This document shows positions 311 to 64,000 of a DNA stretch of 64,000 nt, piece after piece. The notes below the pieces were generated by a model, which worked only from the letters and a program-made list of their open reading frames with translations, did no database searches and was not told the DNA's origin. The DNA is from Pseudomonadota bacterium. GTDB taxonomy: Bacteria > Pseudomonadota > Alphaproteobacteria > Rs-D84. Both the position numbers and the translations under genes were made by a program. The DNA is taken from NCBI GenBank assembly GCA_023402015.1, contig JAEXCU010000011.1, positions 5,275 through 69,274 on the forward strand. The letters run 5' to 3'. Positions within the stretch are counted from its first letter, which is position 1, and the number at the start of each line of letters is the position of its first letter.

Positions 311-1051
311 ATGAGGCGTAGAATGAAAATCCTAAGAATCTTTTCCTTTGTTTTCAGTGGCGCATGTGTTTTATTTTCCTATCAGCAATCATTTGCCGCT
401 TCGTCCAGTCAATCATGCACAATGTGTGAATATATTTTTAATGATGCGACCGAATTGTATCGCGAAAATATTTTAATTACCTGGGAACAATTTGATATGG
501 CAATGGACACGCGTTGTTCACAAATGACTGCATTATTAATGTCGCAATGCAAAAACATGATGCAACAGTATGGGTATATGATGTACGAACTGGTTACCAG
601 TGATTTCAGCCCCAACGAAGGCTGTATCCAATTGGGCCTGTGCGACAGCGGCGAACCATGCACATGTACCCCATCATCGTCATCAACAAATATTACCGGT
701 GGGAAAAGAAACACAACCACGTACAGTGGATGTTCCACATGTCCCGCAACACAATACAGTTGTTCATGCAACACCGATTACGCCGTGCAAAACCAAGGCA
801 CCAGCAGTTGTTCATGCAGCGTTTATTGCAGTGCCGGTAAATATTACAACAATGGTGCATGCACAGTTTGCGCCAGTGGCATGTACAAAGGTTCGGCCGG
901 CAATACATCATGCACAACCTGTCCGTCATCGGGTAAAACATCCGGTACGGCCGCCACATCCCACGACAGCATAACCAAATGTTATCTGGACACCGGTTCA
1001 GACGGCACGGGTTCATACGGTTTTGATCCGGTATGTTATTACACCGAATAA
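311..1051 (+). CDS. Secreted two-domain Cys-rich protein (family member P1): saposin-B-like six-Cys N-domain plus ephrin-receptor-like/GCC2_GCC3-like Cys repeats and the family C-terminal module
   Basis: 246-aa ORF with a hydrophobic N-terminus ending SFA/AS (signal-peptide-like). Cys at residues 36,39,69,80,105,111 (spacing 2/29/10/24/5). C-terminus CSAGKYYNNGACTVCASGMYKGSAGNTSCTTCPSSG...CYLDTGSDGTGSYGFDPVCYYTE. ATG at 323 is an alternative start. Confidence 0.8.
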   Translation: MRRRMKILRIFSFVFSGACVLFSYQQSFAASSSQSCTMCEYIFNDATELYRENILITWEQFDMAMDTRCSQMTALLMSQCKNMMQQYGYMMYELVTSDFSPNEGCIQLGLCDSGEPCTCTPSSSSTNITGGKRNTTTYSGCSTCPATQYSCSCNTDYAVQNQGTSSCSCSVYCSAGKYYNNGACTVCASGMYKGSAGNTSCTTCPSSGKTSGTAATSHDSITKCYLDTGSDGTGSYGFDPVCYYTE

Positions 1052-1086
1052 TTAATCGTAAAAACAAACAAATACAGAAGGAAACC

Positions 1087-1806
1087 ATGAAACACATCAG
1101 AAAATTTTCTGTTATATTTTTCGGCGCATTTGCAATAATTTTATCACATCCGTCATATGCCGCATCATCCAGCCAATGCAATATGTGTGAATATATTTTC
1201 AACGAGGCCATAGATGTTTCACAAACAATCATTACATACGACCAATTTACATATGCAATGGAAACCAGATGTTCCCAACTGGCGGCATTGATACAAAATC
1301 AATGCAAAAATATGCTGCAAGATTACGGGGAAATGATGTATGAATTATCCGATGGTTCCGTGGCACCCAATGAAGGATGTCAACAATTAGGCATGTGCGA
1401 CGGGGGCAGTACCCCATGCACATGTACGTCATCATCTTCATCTGCGAACATTACCGGTGGGACGCGCACAACGGTCAGATACAGCGGATGCACAAACTGC
1501 CCTGCGACAACTTATTCTTGTTCATGCAATACAGATTACGCGGTTCAAAACCAGGGCACCAGCAGTTGTTCATGCAGCGTTTATTGCAGTGCTGGCAAAT
1601 ATTACAACAACGGTTCTTGCACCGTCTGCGCCAGTGGAACATACAAAGAATCCGCCGGCAATACGTCATGCACTGCGTGCCCTTCATCGGGCAAAACGAC
1701 CGGAACAACCGCCGCAGCCCATGATAGTGTAAATGATTGTTATCTGGACAATGGCTCAGACACCGCGGGTGTATATGACTATAATCCGGTATGTTATTAT
1801 AAATAA
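1087..1806 (+). CDS. Secreted two-domain Cys-rich protein (P2), tandem paralog of P1
   Basis: ATG at 1087 is preceded by AAGGAAACC, and the longer ORF from 1033 lacks an RBS. Signal-like MKHIRKFSVIFFGAFAIILSHPSYA. Six Cys spaced 2/27/10/24/5. C-terminus CTACPSSGKTTG...CYLDNGSDTAGVYDYNPVCYYK. Confidence 0.8.
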   Translation: MKHIRKFSVIFFGAFAIILSHPSYAASSSQCNMCEYIFNEAIDVSQTIITYDQFTYAMETRCSQLAALIQNQCKNMLQDYGEMMYELSDGSVAPNEGCQQLGMCDGGSTPCTCTSSSSSANITGGTRTTVRYSGCTNCPATTYSCSCNTDYAVQNQGTSSCSCSVYCSAGKYYNNGSCTVCASGTYKESAGNTSCTACPSSGKTTGTTAAAHDSVNDCYLDNGSDTAGVYDYNPVCYYK

Positions 1807-1809
1807 ATA

Positions 1810-1830
1810 ATGCGGGATTAAATCCCGCAT
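1810..1830. terminator. Bidirectional hairpin terminator between convergent P2 and the ABC exporter gene
   Basis: ATGCGGGATTAAATCCCGCAT perfect hairpin. The same 21-mer recurs at 5576-5596. Confidence 0.6.
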
Positions 1831-1839
1831 TCTGTTTCG

Positions 1840-61397: not shown

Positions 61398-61581
61398 AAA
61401 AACTTCCTTTCCTGAATGTTTTTCGTATTTATTATGCTTATTATAACAATTTGACCGAATCTGTGCAAGATTAAAACGCACATAAATCAACCACGATTTG
61501 AAATATCACCAAGATAAAATCGCACGAATCGGGAAAAAATGTTATACTGTTTTCATCAGTTTAAATTTTCAGGAGTGGTAT

Positions 61582-62130
61582 ATGCAAAATATTTTGATTT
61601 TGGTGGGAATTACCCTGGTTATTGTTATGGGTTTGGGATTGCTGTATTTCATGGTGCGAATTAATACGCGCGTTCGGGATATGACCAAAACGCTGACGCA
61701 CCAGTATAATTTGATTGTAAAAATGCAAATGGTTTTGAAAAATAAATACGCAACAAATGCCGTGGCCGAAAACGCAGAAATGATATACCAAGATTTACTG
61801 CAAAATTTAATTCCAATTATGGCTGCAATTGACATCATGCCACGAAACACGGCCGAACACCCATTATGGCGCGCCCTGGGCGGGATTTTGGATGAATACG
61901 CAAAAAATCCATTTGCATTGGAAAAACTGCGCAGATGCATTAAACTGGACGCGGAAATCGCGCGCAGTGTTGACAACTATATGAACCGTGCGGACGGATT
62001 TCTGCATCATTTGACAACAACCGAACCTGATGGAATATTGGCCGCAACGTTTACGGACGGTTTGCTGGGGCAATCGCTGACATTCTTTGCCCAGGCAAAA
62101 CAATTGGCCGCGCAAAGCAACGAAATGTAA
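61582..62130 (+). CDS. Hypothetical single-pass membrane protein
   Basis: 182 aa from the ATG at 61582 with RBS AGGAG. N-terminal TM ILILVGITLVIVMGLGLLYFMV. Confidence 0.55.
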   Translation: MQNILILVGITLVIVMGLGLLYFMVRINTRVRDMTKTLTHQYNLIVKMQMVLKNKYATNAVAENAEMIYQDLLQNLIPIMAAIDIMPRNTAEHPLWRALGGILDEYAKNPFALEKLRRCIKLDAEIARSVDNYMNRADGFLHHLTTTEPDGILAATFTDGLLGQSLTFFAQAKQLAAQSNEM

Positions 62131-62138
62131 ATGATTAA

Positions 62139-63488
62139 ATGACAAAACTGTCTGAAAATCTTATTCGCGAAATATCCGCCATGCGCGATGAACCTCAGTG
62201 GTTATTGCAATGGCGATTGGCGGCGTTTCATGCATGGAAAAAAATGTCGGAACCCCACTGGGCCGAAATTGACTATGCACCAATTGATTATGACGGTTTA
62301 AATTATTATAACGAGCCCGCACCAATTGATAATTCTGACTTAAAGGCCGCATATGATAAAATGGGCCTGCCCGAGGCGGAACAACGCGCCCTGATGGGCA
62401 TGGCGACCGACACGGTTATTGACAGTAAATCTGTTCATACGTCATATACGGCGGAACTGAATAAACTGGGGATTATTTTTCTGCCTTTTTCCGATGCAGT
62501 AAAACAATATCCGGATTTGGTAAGAAAATATTTGGGAACGGTTGTTCCGGCCACAGATAACTTTTATGCGGCCTTAAATGCGGCGGTATTTTCAGACGGA
62601 ACATTTGTTTACGTCCCACCAAATACAAAATGCCCAATTGATTTGGCCAGTTATTTCAGAATTCAAACCGCAAAAATTGGCCAGTTTGAACGTACACTGA
62701 TTATCGCCGATGCCGGTGCAACACTGTCATATATGGAAGGTTGCAGCGCCCCGCGCCGTCCCAACCATCAGTTGCACAGCGGGGTTGTTGAAATCATTGC
62801 ACATGAAAATGCAACGGTAAAATATGCAACGGTGCAAAATTGGTATGCAGGGGATTTCGCCACATACAGCGATTCTGGGCATAAAAAAACCGCGTATCGT
62901 GGCGGCATTTTAAACTTTGTCAGCAAACGCGGTCGCGCAGATAAAAATGCCACAATTGATTGGACCCAGGTTGAAATCGGATCTGCCATGACATGGAAAT
63001 ATCCGTCAACAATTTTGGCGGGCGATGGCGCGCACAGTGATTTTTATTCACTGACCATAACACGTGGCGAACAACAGGCGGACACCGGCACAAAAATGAT
63101 TCATATTGGCAATGACACCGTTTCCAACATCGTGTCATATGGTGTCGCGTTGGATAAATCACGCCAAACGTTTCGCAGCCTGGTCAGTTTTTCTGGAACG
63201 GGGTGCGCGAATGCGTCCAAATGCGATACACGCCTGATTGGTGATGATGCAATTGCAAATACTTTGCCAACAATTGTTCATGGAAATGGCGAAAACCGCC
63301 AAAGTCATGAGGCCACCACCGGTGCCATCGATGCCGCGCAATTGGAATTTTTAATGCAGGCCGGCATTGCGCGGGACGCGGCAACCGCCCTGATTATCGG
63401 TGCGGTCGCGGCGCCGATTATTTCGCGCCTGCCAATGGAATTTTTGGTTGAATCCAAACAACTTATTCAAATGGCCTTGGCAGAATAG
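62139..63488 (+). CDS. sufB: Fe-S cluster assembly scaffold SufB
   Basis: 449 aa with FVYVPPNTKCPIDLASYFRI, QFERTLIIADAGATLSYMEGCSAP, and the C-terminal beta-helix region. Confidence 0.9.
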   Translation: MTKLSENLIREISAMRDEPQWLLQWRLAAFHAWKKMSEPHWAEIDYAPIDYDGLNYYNEPAPIDNSDLKAAYDKMGLPEAEQRALMGMATDTVIDSKSVHTSYTAELNKLGIIFLPFSDAVKQYPDLVRKYLGTVVPATDNFYAALNAAVFSDGTFVYVPPNTKCPIDLASYFRIQTAKIGQFERTLIIADAGATLSYMEGCSAPRRPNHQLHSGVVEIIAHENATVKYATVQNWYAGDFATYSDSGHKKTAYRGGILNFVSKRGRADKNATIDWTQVEIGSAMTWKYPSTILAGDGAHSDFYSLTITRGEQQADTGTKMIHIGNDTVSNIVSYGVALDKSRQTFRSLVSFSGTGCANASKCDTRLIGDDAIANTLPTIVHGNGENRQSHEATTGAIDAAQLEFLMQAGIARDAATALIIGAVAAPIISRLPMEFLVESKQLIQMALAE

Positions 63489-63494
63489 TTAATA

Positions 63495-64000
63495 TTAATC
63501 TTTCACGTAATGACACATATCTGTTAAATCAAATTCACCGGTATCATCCACATATGGACCATCAGAATCCATCAATACACAATCTTCTATACTAAGATTA
63601 ACGCCGGGCATACTATACCCATAAACCGTTTCCCCGGCCGTATTTTTAACCGACGGACATCTGGCGCACCCATTGGAACTGTTTTCACTTTCATAATATC
63701 CGTTTGCGCAGCGATACTGACTGGTGGATATCCATTCATCACATTTACATCCCGATGCCGTTTGATAAATCATTAAACCATCCCCGACGTTATACCAACG
63801 TGTGGCACTGCATGATTGCATGCAAAAACCATTCACTGTGCATTTAAACGTACCTGTTTTGCCAATCCCCTGTGCCGCGCCGCTGGCCGTTCCACCACTG
63901 TATACATTTTGTTCGCCCGATGTACATCCTGGATAACTGCCATTACAATATCCACCACGGTTTGCCGTCATAGATGAATTTGCATCACACCAATAACAAA
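63495..64000 (-). CDS. Cys-rich protein (P9), 5' end runs off the window
   Basis: C-terminus CANGYYESENSSNGCARCPSVKNTAGE...DCVLMDSDGPYVDDTGEFDLTDMCHYVKD. The frame remains open upstream of the ATG at 63971 (...CYWCDANSS) to the window edge. Confidence 0.7.
   Translation of the reverse strand, partial: CYWCDANSSMTANRGGYCNGSYPGCTSGEQNVYSGGTASGAAQGIGKTGTFKCTVNGFCMQSCSATRWYNVGDGLMIYQTASGCKCDEWISTSQYRCANGYYESENSSNGCARCPSVKNTAGETVYGYSMPGVNLSIEDCVLMDSDGPYVDDTGEFDLTDMCHYVKD

What the first reader, a model, noticed from the sequence alone, without database searches (positions are those of the whole stretch)
311..64000. Nine paralogs of a secreted Cys-rich family sharing a C-terminal CxxCP...CY...D.TG...C[YF]Y module
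The members are at 311-1051(+), 1087-1806(+), 5600-5980(-), 22933-23502(+), 24177-24713(+), 30474-31088(-), 32899-33495(-), 41813-42286(+) and 63495->64000(-). All end with the same roughly 45-aa module. Examples are CNDCPQNGWSATGATSITQCYMIPGNSSDTTGQFTYTANCFYTN and CSRCPSSYG..ATSITKCYLPSGTIGTDTSGDFAYSENCFYSE. Most have clear signal peptides, and their N-terminal domains differ. The first half resembles the eukaryote-type ephrin-receptor-like (GCC2_GCC3) / TNFR-like Cys repeat. The terminal G..D.TG.[YF]....C[YF]Y tail is invariant in position, within the last 2-12 residues. It could be a folding cap, a targeting or sorting signal, or a receptor-binding tip. Together with the 882-aa protein at 55865-58513, this gene class occupies about 12% of the window and is scattered among core genes.
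Basis: seen in the sequence. Interest (0 to 1): 0.8.

Follow-up and report, generated by a model that had tools for sequence, protein, structure and literature searches.

The report
Secreted Cys-rich family, shared C-terminal domain
An uncultured gut-type alphaproteobacterium carries nine scattered genes for small exported, disulfide-rich proteins that join very different front ends to one conserved rear domain built from an animal/protist-style (ephrin-receptor/TNF-receptor-like) cysteine repeat; the family is real, widespread in metagenomes, unannotated, varies fast between strains, and its function is unknown.

Summary
All nine ORFs exist and end in one homologous module. Leave-one-out HMM scores are 30-59 bits, against at most 16 bits for shuffled tails.

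An exhaustive profile search shows the family is not private to this genome. At least 100 clusters of 80-320-aa proteins, all hypothetical and named only from Alphaproteobacteria MAGs, have a signal peptide, a variable head and the module ending 0-3 residues before the stop codon.

The first ~45 residues of the module are a divergent Ephrin_rec_like/TNFR-type Cys repeat. Eukaryotic giant repeat proteins match only this part. The tail looks like a truncated next half-repeat that forms a closing hairpin.

The conserved 104-aa domain models at pLDDT 91 and has no significant PDB or BFVD neighbour. Two members (311, 1087) carry a genuine saposin-fold head.

Between strains the family genes diverge far faster than their neighbours. 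One chromosomal slot holds a different family member in the sister strain.

I found no conserved partner gene, no phage or plasmid copies, and no DGR. The 882-aa protein is related only at motif level.

Best reading: Sec-exported proteins with a constant base and a variable head, used for extracellular binding or interaction. This is a new variant of a known repeat superfamily. Function is inferred, not shown.

The parts
311..1051 (+). Family member 1 (246 aa): signal peptide, saposin-like head (aa ~36-111), Cys-rich linker, C-terminal module (aa 187-246).
   Evidence: (Ephrin_rec_like 31.4 bits, above GA 23.1; SapB_2 20.4 bits against GA 21).
1087..1806 (+). Family member 2 (239 aa), tandem paralog of member 1 (73% DNA identity): signal peptide, saposin-fold head, Cys-rich linker, module.
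   Evidence: Ephrin_rec_like 36.1 bits; AF2: head pLDDT 81-95; saposin A/C and NK-lysin, TM 0.78-0.82, rmsd 1.9-2.3.
5600..5980 (-). Family member 3 (126 aa): signal peptide, short Cys-rich head, module. Identical protein found on several metagenome contigs.
22933..23502 (+). Family member 4 (189 aa): signal peptide, helical Cys-containing head of unknown fold, module.
   Evidence: Ortholog in sister strain is 96% identical. The gene in this lineage's syntenic relatives is only 43-44% identical.
24177..24713 (+). Family member 5 (178 aa from the first ATG): Cys/Gly-rich head plus the extended conserved 104-aa C-terminal domain (24399-24710). No signal peptide from a canonical start. The in-frame upstream stretch 24027-24176 is homologous to the signal peptide of the L096 ortholog, but a stop codon replaces its Met.
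   Evidence: AF2 pLDDT 90.7, pTM 0.76; head 68% against domain 97% identity between strains.
30474..31088 (-). Family member 6 (204 aa): signal peptide or possible lipobox (LIMC), helical head, module followed by an acidic 15-aa extension. It occupies a slot that holds a different family member in the sister strain and is empty in a related species.
30425..31381 (.). Hairpin-to-hairpin segment around member 6, bounded by two identical terminator hairpins (AATCCCCCATGACGGGGGATT at 30425-30445 and 31361-31381). It behaves as the exchanged unit between strains.
32899..33495 (-). Family member 7 (198 aa, TTG start): signal peptide, helical head, module lacking the first two module Cys. Its allele in the sister strain is deeply divergent (dN 0.28, dS 1.08).
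41813..42286 (+). Family member 8 (157 aa): signal peptide, Cys-rich repeat head, module.
   Evidence: a second weak repeat upstream of the module; P0017 is its representative.
63495..64000 (-). Family member 9, N-terminus cut by the window end. The full-length homolog P0019 (201 aa) has a signal peptide.
55865..58513 (-). 882-aa Cys-rich protein (91 Cys, six C..G.[YFW]..C..C motifs). Related at motif level only and NOT a carrier of the module. It lies directly downstream of the TcpQ-like (60483-61490) and PilN-type secretin (58821-60449) genes.
   Evidence: (TNFR_ELAPOR1 27.4 bits, below GA 33.2).

Best explanation
The nine genes belong to a lineage-specific, unannotated multigene family of small (about 80-320 aa), acidic, disulfide-rich proteins of uncultured, largely gut-associated Alphaproteobacteria.

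Each protein is exported by an N-terminal Sec-type signal peptide. This is inferred from sequence. Each consists of a variable head and a constant C-terminal base.

The base is a rigid beta-hairpin ladder derived from the eukaryote-type Ephrin-receptor-like/TNFR-like cysteine repeat (C-x2-G-x-Y ... C-x-x-C-P ... C). It is closed by a family-specific cap. The cap is a truncated next half-repeat that forms a hairpin around a D-x-[TS]-G turn, and it ends in C-[YF]-Y a few residues before the stop codon.

The heads differ completely between paralogs. Two have a saposin fold, some are helical domains of unknown fold, and others are further Cys-rich hairpins. Heads diverge much faster than the base. 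Whole genes are swapped or lost at fixed chromosomal slots between strains.

Most likely mechanism (inferred, not shown): after disulfide formation in the periplasm the proteins are released or exposed at the cell surface. There they act as a repertoire of binding or interaction modules. The conserved base provides a stable scaffold, and possibly a shared docking surface. The head provides the specificity. In the two saposin members the head activity would be lipid or membrane binding. Diversifying pressure from a host, protist or competing microbes would drive the turnover.
For: Family reality and architecture:
- Leave-one-out HMM scores are 30-59 bits against at most 16 bits for shuffles.
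- 109 of the top 150 hits among 1.84 billion representatives are 79-322-aa proteins with one full module. It ends 0-2 residues from the C-terminus in 100 of the 109.
- On independent metagenome DNA, 66 of 69 module ORFs have the full tail and 64 of those 66 end within 3 aa of the stop.

Export: MKK-plus-hydrophobic N-termini with AxA-type cleavage sites in 104 of 116 members.

Origin of the base:
- Pfam Ephrin_rec_like is above GA in two members and matches 18 of 70 at E<=0.01.
- Eukaryotic proteins (Intoshia, Guillardia) match only profile positions 2-48.
- Foldseek hits Eph CRD, thyroglobulin and CaSR.

Cap: hits in giant proteins that reach the tail are read-through into the next repeat. 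The AF2 model of the 104-aa domain (pLDDT 90.7, pTM 0.76) shows the hairpin 86-89/92-95 and a terminal strand pairing with the strand after the fourth Cys.

The module is autonomous: mini-proteins consist of signal peptide plus module only.

Heads: the saposin fold is shown by TM 0.78-0.82 to saposin A/C and NK-lysin. The other heads are unrelated to one another (hhalign probability <10%).

Turnover:
- Neighbours are 98-100% identical between strains (dN mostly <=0.014). Family genes have dN 0.016, 0.105 and 0.28.
- Head against base identity is 68% against 97% for 24177.
- The efp/fba slot holds a different member in L005 and is empty in L096/L097.
- A family gene is 43-44% identical where flanking housekeeping genes are 78-96% identical.

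Real genes:
- dN/dS is 0.10-0.34.
- Shine-Dalgarno-like sequences precede most starts.
- Intrinsic terminators lie 5-29 nt after the stop codons of two window members (24177 and 30474), and directly after family genes in L093 and L005.
Against: - No expression, localisation or binding data exist, so function is pure inference.
- dN/dS is raised but stays below 1. Positive selection is therefore not demonstrated, and relaxed constraint plus recombination of old alleles would also fit.
- Signal peptides were judged with a crude in-house rule, not a trained predictor.
- The window copy of 24177 lacks a canonical start for its leader and may be defective.
- Whether the proteins cross the outer membrane is unknown.
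- Most larger members have an odd number of Cys: 90 of 104 in one set, 45 of 63 in a second set. The scaffold model does not explain this.
- Taxonomy rests on three named MAG proteins and on LepA similarity.
Confidence: 0.5

Rival explanations
1. The conserved C-terminal module is mainly a sorting, secretion or surface-anchoring signal, analogous to the type IX secretion CTD. A dedicated outer-membrane route would recognise it and export diverse small cargo heads. The orphan TcpQ/PilN-type secretin in the window is one candidate route.
For: The position at the extreme C-terminus is strict: 100 of 109 and 64 of 66 end within 2-3 aa of the end. One module sits on many unrelated heads. The chain ends in aromatic residues. 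A secretin plus TcpQ-like pair lies next to a giant Cys-rich protein in the same window.
Against: Mini-proteins consisting only of signal peptide plus module exist, so there is no cargo to sort. In most members the conserved region is a roughly 100-aa folded disulfide domain, more than half of the mature protein. No gene co-occurs with the family in more than 8 of 62 loci. The 882-aa protein next to the secretin lacks the module. NCBIfam sorting-domain models give no hit.
Confidence: 0.15
2. The proteins are secreted antimicrobial or bacteriocin-like toxins used in competition between bacteria. Heads such as the saposin fold (as in NK-lysin and amoebapore) would act on target membranes, and the base would bind a receptor.
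For: The proteins are small, secreted and variable between strains, with cassette replacement at fixed loci. Two members have a saposin fold with NK-lysin among the structural matches.
Against: The family is acidic, with median pI 4.67, net charge -5 and only 7% above pI 8. No adjacent immunity gene, C39-peptidase ABC exporter or any other conserved neighbour was found. Most heads are not saposin-like.
Confidence: 0.12
3. The proteins mimic host molecules. They would be secreted decoy receptors or ligand traps that use a TNFR/Eph-receptor-like cysteine-rich domain to bind host, or gut-protist, cell-surface or cytokine ligands, as poxviral TNFR homologs do.
For: The repeat is of eukaryotic type. 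The top structural neighbours of the base are DcR3 and the EphA2 CRD, though not significantly. Close relatives of this genome occur in assemblies labelled human gut metagenome, and the closest LepA matches include a rumen MAG.
Against: Structural matches to TNFR and Eph are local and statistically insignificant for the whole domain (E about 1-2, TM about 0.2). Each protein has only one divergent repeat plus cap, where true TNFRs use 3-4 CRDs. One member comes from activated sludge. GC content equals that of the genome and the paralogs are old (median 34% identity), so there is no sign of recent acquisition from a host.
Confidence: 0.08
4. The variation is programmed: these would be targets of a diversity-generating retroelement, a shufflon or phase variation.
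For: The module is C-terminal, as DGR variable regions are. A bAvd/23S_rRNA_IVP-family gene sits beside the 24177 homolog in the sister strain.
Against: No reverse transcriptase or recombinase was found among the flanking ORFs tested. There is no template-like DNA repeat. Only 311/1087 align at the DNA level, at 73%. It is the C-terminus that is conserved, not variable. The apparent frameshift variant (L003 against L001) is identical DNA that was called differently.
Confidence: 0.02

Closest known systems
Ephrin_rec_like (Pfam PF07699, formerly GCC2_GCC3) and TNFR-like cysteine-rich repeats of eukaryotic extracellular proteins (Eph receptors, ELAPOR1, thyroglobulin, CaSR, protist surface proteins)
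   Same: The signature is the same: C-x2-G-x-[YF] ... C-x-x-C-P-x-G ... (S/T)-I-T-x-C. Pfam scores exceed the gathering score in two members. Eukaryotic repeat proteins are the only non-family hits of the module profile. Foldseek retrieves Eph CRD, thyroglobulin and CaSR.
   Different: The proteins are bacterial. The module is a single terminal copy, not a tandem array. It is followed by a family-specific cap (D-x-[TS]-G ... C-[YF]-Y) that ends the protein. Only 18 of 70 members are detectable by the Pfam model. The assembled 104-aa domain has no significant PDB neighbour.
Saposin-like proteins (SAPLIPs: saposins A-D, NK-lysin, amoebapores)
   Same: In the heads of 311-1051 and 1087-1806 the six Cys have saposin spacing. 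They form a four-helix bundle that superposes on saposin A/C and NK-lysin (TM 0.78-0.82, rmsd about 2 A). The SapB_2 hit is near threshold.
   Different: The host is bacterial. The head is fused to a Cys-rich linker and the family module. It is acidic. No lipid-binding or lytic activity has been shown. Pfam is just below its gathering score (20.4 and 18.7 against 21). The other heads in the window are not demonstrably saposin-like.
Giardia variant-specific surface proteins (VSPs) and similar protist Cys-rich surface families
   Same: The logic is the same: a large multigene family with a variable CXXC-rich N-terminal part and a conserved C-terminal end. The repeat chemistry is shared. One family member hits Pfam VSP at E 4.8e-5.
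   Different: There is no transmembrane helix and no CRGKA tail. The proteins are far smaller. They are bacterial and Sec-exported. There is no evidence of mutually exclusive expression.
Type IX secretion C-terminal domains (CTD) on Bacteroidota cargo
   Same: Both are conserved domains at the extreme C-terminus of otherwise unrelated exported proteins that also carry N-terminal signal peptides.
   Different: The T9SS CTD is a Cys-free Ig-like sandwich recognised by a known machinery in another phylum. Here NCBIfam models give no match, there is no conserved partner gene, and the module also occurs alone.
Small secreted cysteine-rich effector families of fungal and oomycete pathogens, and 'eukaryote-like proteins' of bacterial symbionts
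   Same: These are also small, signal-peptide-bearing, disulfide-rich, lineage-specific, multi-copy and fast-evolving proteins without annotation.
   Different: This is only an analogy of lifestyle and evolutionary pattern. There is no sequence relationship, and a host association of this bacterium is inferred only from metagenome labels.

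Membership tests
Ephrin_rec_like / GCC2_GCC3 (PF07699) | Pfam HMM score at or above the gathering score (23.1 bits) | tested here: inconclusive
   Met by 311-1051 (31.4) and 1087-1806 (36.1). 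22933 scores 16.3 and the other six give no hit. 18 of 70 family members match at E<=0.01.
Ephrin_rec_like / GCC2_GCC3 (PF07699) | Signature C-x2-G-x-[YF] ... C-x-x-C-P ... C with four Cys per unit | tested here: met
   Present in 8 of 9 window members; 32899 lacks the first two Cys. Invariant or near-invariant in the 70- and 107-sequence alignments.
Ephrin_rec_like / GCC2_GCC3 (PF07699) | Fold similarity to solved Eph-receptor or TNFR cysteine-rich domains | tested here: inconclusive
   Local hits to EphA2/EphB2/EphA4 CRD, thyroglobulin and CaSR at E 0.03-0.4. For the whole 104-aa domain the best hits are DcR3 (E 0.94) and EphA2 CRD (E 1.7), with TM about 0.2.
Ephrin_rec_like / GCC2_GCC3 (PF07699) | Occurs as tandem arrays in large extracellular eukaryotic proteins | tested here: not met
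   Small bacterial proteins carry one terminal unit plus cap. The tandem arrays are seen only in the giant hits, and those with names are eukaryotic.
Saposin-like proteins (SapB_1/SapB_2), for members 311 and 1087 only | Six Cys in saposin spacing (C-x2-C ... C ... C ... C-x5-C) | tested here: met
   The sequence shows it directly.
Saposin-like proteins (SapB_1/SapB_2), for members 311 and 1087 only | Pfam SapB_2 at or above the gathering score (21 bits) | tested here: not met
   20.4 and 18.7-19.0 bits, just below threshold. Another family member reaches E 1.7e-5.
Saposin-like proteins (SapB_1/SapB_2), for members 311 and 1087 only | Compact helical saposin fold | tested here: met
   AF2 head pLDDT is 81-95. 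Foldseek gives saposin A 4uex TM 0.78, saposin C 2gtg TM 0.82 and NK-lysin 0.79, with rmsd 1.9-2.3 A and probability 1.00.
Saposin-like proteins (SapB_1/SapB_2), for members 311 and 1087 only | Lipid or membrane binding | not testable with these tools
   Needs liposome binding and leakage assays.
Saposin-like proteins, for the heads of 22933, 30474 and 32899 | Detectable homology to the saposin heads or to each other | tested here: not met
   hhalign probabilities are 0.1-8.7% and Pfam gives no hit. Only a loose CxxC...Cx5C pattern is shared.
C-terminal sorting domains (T9SS CTD and other NCBIfam CTERM-type signals) | Match to a curated sorting-domain model, and presence of the cognate machinery | tested here: not met
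   No NCBIfam hit at E<=1 for any member. No recurrent neighbour gene. The whole genome was not available to search for machinery.
Diversity-generating retroelement target proteins | Nearby reverse transcriptase and a template repeat matching a variable C-terminal region | tested here: not met
   No RT among the flanking ORFs tested. No DNA repeats among members except the old 311/1087 duplication. The C-terminus is the conserved part.
Giardia VSP (PF03302) | Pfam VSP above its gathering score; C-terminal transmembrane helix and CRGKA tail | tested here: not met
   41813 scores 9.8 bits against GA 31.4. Only 1 of 70 members reaches E 4.8e-5. No hydrophobic C-terminus is present in any member.
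Bacteriocin / secreted antimicrobial peptide loci | Adjacent immunity and/or dedicated export genes; usually cationic peptide | tested here: not met
   No conserved neighbour. Median pI is 4.67. The adjacent MsbA-like ABC protein has no peptidase domain and is convergent.

The most novel reading that the evidence does not exclude
A cysteine-repeat scaffold of eukaryotic type (ephrin-receptor/TNFR-like) has been domesticated by uncultured gut Alphaproteobacteria into a hypervariable repertoire of secreted proteins. These would engage host or gut-protist cell-surface molecules or membranes, as a bacterial counterpart of viral TNFR decoys or protist variant surface proteins. New specificities would be installed by swapping whole genes at fixed chromosomal slots bounded by terminator hairpins. 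A conserved unpaired cysteine would mediate covalent dimerisation or tethering.
Probability: 0.15. Interest if true: 0.8.

Novelty: new variant of a known kind. Interest (0 to 1): 0.55.

Why it matters
Uncultured gut and rumen Alphaproteobacteria are common in metagenomes, but almost nothing is known about how they interact with their surroundings.

This family has several notable properties:
- It makes up 8% of this window.
- Pfam misses most members and NCBIfam has no model for it.
- It combines two fold types regarded as typically eukaryotic: an Eph/TNFR-like Cys repeat and, in two members, a saposin fold.
- It is the fastest-evolving gene class in the region.

These properties make it a concrete candidate for the interaction surface of these organisms. 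A family model would allow annotation of hundreds of 'hypothetical proteins'. The saposin-bearing members would be among the few bacterial saposin-fold exported proteins available for experimental study.

If the function turns out to be merely structural, the finding is still a useful new domain family, but not a conceptual advance.

Tried and rejected
- **Word-indexed protein searches.** These were nearly blind to the family. The single sequence found one 96% homolog. The module alignment found nothing. The saposin head found nothing. Only the exhaustive profile search worked.
- **Genome-contig scan.** I spent it on LepA for taxonomy, so it could not be used for the family.
- **DGR idea.** A bAvd-family gene in L005 prompted it. 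I rejected it: no RT, no template repeat, and the C-terminus is conserved.
- **Phase variation or frameshift in 24177** (L003 against L001). The DNA is identical and only the gene calls differ.
- **Saposin-likeness of the heads of 22933, 30474 and 32899.** Not supported, with hhalign probability <10%. A loose Cys regex was non-specific.
- **AATCCC...GGGATT hairpin as a cassette-specific site.** It is a general intrinsic terminator of this lineage and also follows dnaN, efp, dnaJ and the acyltransferase gene.
- **Conserved neighbour or partner gene.** None found.
- **'The last Cys is the unpaired one'.** I withdrew this claim. The mini-proteins have six Cys when one upstream Cys is counted, so all module Cys can pair.
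- **CaaX-type prenylation motif.** Rejected: the Cys is mostly at -5, YY is not aliphatic, and the proteins are Sec-exported.
- **Phage or plasmid carriage.** None: PHROGs, viral contigs, plasmid and phage tblastn.
- **Exact-sequence look-ups** of the window's DnaA and of the 311 protein. Neither is on record.
- **Literature searches** for bacterial Ephrin_rec_like/GCC2_GCC3, bacterial saposin-like proteins and RF32 genomes. Nothing relevant was found.

Full report
**Observation**

The window has about 44% GC. It carries ordinary Gram-negative core genes: msbA-like, fabF, lepA, uvrC, parE, tolB, efp, ppa, dnaN, dnaA, dprA, plsY and sufBD.

Their last ~60 residues align, with invariant G, C-P, C, D, G and C columns. 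A six-frame HMM scan of the window finds exactly these nine at 62-83 bits, and nothing else above 15 bits.

That scan is circular, so I ran a leave-one-out test. Each left-out protein scores 30-59 bits against a model built from the other eight. The maximum over 1000 shuffles of its own tail is 6-16 bits. The module is therefore homologous and not a by-product of Cys-rich composition.

The nine genes cover 8.0% of the window, or 12.2% with the 882-aa gene.

**Organism**

LepA is 90% identical to a MAG labelled uncultured Rickettsiales and 88% identical to MAG RUG11949. It is only about 64-67% identical to any named alphaproteobacterial genus.

Syntenic contigs with 78-96% identical housekeeping proteins occur in an assembly labelled human gut metagenome. 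Identical or near-identical copies of individual family proteins occur on several ENA and Logan metagenome contigs.

The host is thus an uncultured alphaproteobacterium, probably gut-associated. I did not establish a finer taxonomy.

**Distribution of the family**

Word-indexed searches almost failed. The exhaustive HMMER search of 1.84 billion representatives with the module profile gave 1511 hits at E<=1e-3 and 162 at E<=1e-10. The hits fall into two classes.

- **Giant repeat proteins.** Thirty-nine of the top 150 are 486-3792 aa long and have 7-46 matching stretches. These cover only profile positions about 2-48. The ones with names are eukaryotic: Intoshia linei and Guillardia theta.
- **Small proteins.** 109 are 79-322 aa long, with a single full-length match ending 0-2 residues from the C-terminus in 100 cases. 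Almost all begin with MKK plus a hydrophobic stretch.

Every small member that carries a name is a 'hypothetical protein [Alphaproteobacteria bacterium]'.

An independent DNA-level scan of metagenome contigs returned 59 loci. In six-frame translation, 66 of 69 module ORFs had the full tail, and 64 of those 66 ended within 3 residues of the stop.

I found no copies in viral contigs, phage records, plasmids or PHROGs.

Outside the ascertained gene, the other genomes carry about one further copy per 58 kb. The window has one per 7 kb, so this lineage or region is unusually rich.

**What the module is**

Pfam Ephrin_rec_like (PF07699) exceeds its gathering score in 311-1051 and 1087-1806, and is sub-threshold or absent in the rest. 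Across 70 members, only 18 match at E<=0.01. NCBIfam has nothing.

In the giant proteins the match ends at the fourth Cys. The few alignments that reach the tail simply run into the next repeat (C..G.Y....C..CP). I therefore read the tail as a truncated, degenerate next half-repeat.

AlphaFold2 on the last 104 residues of the 24177 protein, with a 107-sequence family alignment, gave pLDDT 90.7 and pTM 0.76. The model is an all-beta hairpin ladder. The tail forms a hairpin (residues 86-89 and 92-95) around the conserved D..G turn. The final C-[YF] strand pairs with the strand just after the fourth Cys.

This domain has no significant neighbour in the PDB or BFVD. The best hits are DcR3 at E 0.94 and the EphA2 CRD at E 1.7, with TM about 0.2. 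The resemblance to TNFR and Eph repeats is therefore local, and the assembled domain is not represented among solved structures.

In 77 of 117 members the conserved region extends upstream to about 100 aa, with the pattern C..C...W...TGY...C.C..C...YRCAAGYYG.

Some genomes encode mini-proteins of 88-99 aa. These are just a signal peptide, one extra Cys and the module. The module is therefore an autonomous folding unit and not merely a tag.

**Heads**

AlphaFold2 of the mature 1087-1806 protein gave a confident four-helix head (pLDDT 81-95). It superposes on saposin A, saposin C and NK-lysin with TM 0.78-0.82 normalised to the target, rmsd 1.9-2.3 A and probability 1.00. This agrees with its six-Cys saposin spacing and with near-threshold SapB_2 hits.

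The helical heads of 22933, 30474 and 32899 share a loose CxxC...Cx5C pattern. They show no detectable relationship to the saposin heads or to each other, with hhalign probability below 10%. Their fold is unassigned.

The remaining heads are further Cys-rich hairpins.

The family is acidic: median pI is 4.67 and median net charge is -5.

**Evolutionary behaviour**

The paralogs are old. Median module identity is 34%, and only the tandem pair 311/1087 aligns at the DNA level, at 73%. GC content matches the genome.

I compared the window with a sister strain, L005, a 20.5-kb piece of a 229-kb contig.

| Gene or slot | Result between strains |
|---|---|
| Housekeeping neighbours | 98-100% identical; dN mostly <=0.014 |
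| 22933 | dN 0.016; dN/dS 0.10; head 94%, module 98% identical |
| 24177 | dN 0.105; dN/dS 0.34; head 68%, conserved domain 97% identical |
| 32899 | dN 0.28; dS 1.08; dN/dS 0.26; head 55%, module 64% identical |
| efp/fba slot | holds a different family member in L005: 224 aa, unrelated head, same module |

Two further points come from the more distant relatives L096/L097. The efp/fba slot is empty there. The dnaN/ppa slot there holds a member whose head resembles that of 22933, not that of 32899.

These data show rapid, head-biased divergence and whole-gene turnover at fixed slots. They do not demonstrate positive selection, because dN/dS stays below 1.

No neighbouring gene recurs with the family in more than 8 of 62 loci, and those that recur are syntenic housekeeping genes. 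I could not identify a dedicated exporter, immunity gene or chaperone.

**Evidence that the genes are real**

- Purifying selection acts on the bases.
- Shine-Dalgarno-like sequences precede most starts.
- Intrinsic terminators lie 5-29 nt after the stop codons of two window members, 24177 and 30474, and directly after family genes in L093 and L005.
- More than 100 distinct clusters exist in public data.

Expression itself could not be tested here.

**Mechanism**

The following is shown:
- The proteins have an exported-type N-terminus, by a crude rule.
- The base is conserved, disulfide-rich and confidently modelled.
- The heads are unrelated to one another.
- Divergence is biased to the heads, and whole genes are swapped between strains.
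- There is no partner gene.

The following is inferred:
- After Sec export and periplasmic oxidation, the proteins act outside the cytoplasm as a repertoire of binding or interaction modules.
- The base is a stable scaffold, possibly with a common docking surface.
- The heads carry the specificity. For two members this would be lipid or membrane binding.

I rate this reading at about 0.5. The main rivals are:

| Rival | Confidence | Main weakness |
|---|---|---|
| Sorting-signal role for the module | 0.15 | Module-only mini-proteins exist; no partner gene |
| Bacteriocin-like toxins | 0.12 | Acidity; no immunity or export genes |
| Host-ligand decoys | 0.08 | Structural similarity to TNFR/Eph is only generic |
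| Programmed variation | 0.02 | Effectively refuted within this window |

**An unexplained regularity**

Ninety of 104 members with a recognisable signal peptide have an odd number of Cys in the predicted mature protein. In the independent metagenome set the split is 45 odd to 18 even. Most of the even cases are the six- or eight-Cys mini-proteins.

This suggests one unpaired or intermolecularly bonded Cys in the larger members. I cannot say which Cys it is, and my cleavage predictor is crude.

**The 882-aa protein**

It has 91 Cys and six C..G.[YFW]..C..C motifs, and only a sub-threshold TNFR_ELAPOR1 hit (27.4 against 33.2 bits). It lacks the module, with a best partial score of 6.4 bits. It belongs to the same broad repeat chemistry but not to this family.

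It lies directly downstream of a TcpQ-like gene and a PilN-type secretin gene.

**Novelty and verdict**

No Pfam or NCBIfam model, no annotation and no paper in the searchable library describes this family. It is built from a known repeat superfamily. Its architecture has four new features:
- a single repeat plus cap fixed at the C-terminus;
- variable heads, including a saposin fold;
- a bacterial host;
- slot-wise turnover of whole genes.

I classify it as a new variant of a known kind, with interest 0.55.

Noticed in passing
window 55865-61490 (- strand): Three-gene cluster on one strand: a TcpQ-like gene (60483-61490, PF10671), a PilN-family type IVB pilus secretin (58821-60449, TIGR02520, E 4e-70), then the 882-aa Cys-rich protein. 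No other pilus genes were found among the adjacent ORFs tested. The 882-aa ORF starts at TTG, and the in-frame upstream peptide looks like the hydrophobic core of a signal peptide without a canonical start codon.
   Followed up: partly
window 24024-24176: The 24177 gene has no canonical start codon for a leader. The in-frame upstream stretch (VLSPVKKSWISAFF...) is homologous to the Met-initiated signal peptide of the ortholog in L096:17514-18044(-), but a stop codon sits where that Met is. The sister strain L005 shows the same. The gene may use a non-canonical start or be decaying.
   Followed up: partly
window 22659, 24718, 26618, 30425, 31361, 33676; L005 17631 and 18598; L093 122, 9631 and 10681: A hairpin family AATCCC-N8-9-GGGATT followed by a T run occurs six times in the window, against 0.13 expected, all between 22.6 and 33.7 kb, and five of them flank family genes. 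It is a generic terminator of the lineage. However, the two copies bracketing the 30474 cassette are identical within a strain and differ between strains, as if the hairpin-to-hairpin segment is exchanged as a unit.
   Followed up: partly
window about 31400-31640; L096 11830-12160; L097 11830-11950: Intergenic repeat units downstream of efp, each ending in ...TTCTAATTTATTT and, in L096, roughly 170 nt long. There are several units in the window, two in L096 and one in L097. This may be a small REP- or MITE-like element.
   Followed up: no
family-wide: About 85% of the larger family members have an odd number of Cys in the predicted mature protein, whereas the module-only mini-proteins have an even number. 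This suggests a conserved free or intermolecular Cys, but which Cys it is remains unresolved.
   Followed up: partly
L005 12163-12643, against window 25105-25218: The sister strain carries a 118-aa bAvd/23S_rRNA_IVP-family gene between the 136/149-aa ORF and tolB. The gene is absent from the window, an indel of about 480 bp against 114 bp.
   Followed up: partly
window 27509-27865 and 27987-28343 (- strand): Two adjacent 118-aa ORFs with no Pfam hit, both conserved in the sister strain at 98-100% identity. A CopG-antitoxin-like gene lies just upstream in the syntenic loci. I did not test whether the two ORFs are paralogs.
   Followed up: no
window 50587-54846 (- strand): dnaA, dprA and plsY lie close together, so the window may be near the replication origin. 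Cumulative GC skew falls monotonically across the window with no switch.
   Followed up: no
window 34194-34352 (- strand, inside dnaN in another frame): Weak module-like hit (15.3 bits, E 0.0014 within the window scan) covering only profile positions 10-40. Probably chance.
   Followed up: no
L133, L138, L141, L142, L149-L152, L155 (metagenome loci): A subfamily of mini-proteins of 88-99 aa, consisting of a signal peptide, one extra Cys and the module only. This is the minimal form of the family and would be the easiest target for structural work.
   Followed up: partly
window 3687-3763 (- strand): tRNA-Pro (CGG), the only RNA gene detected in the window.
   Followed up: yes
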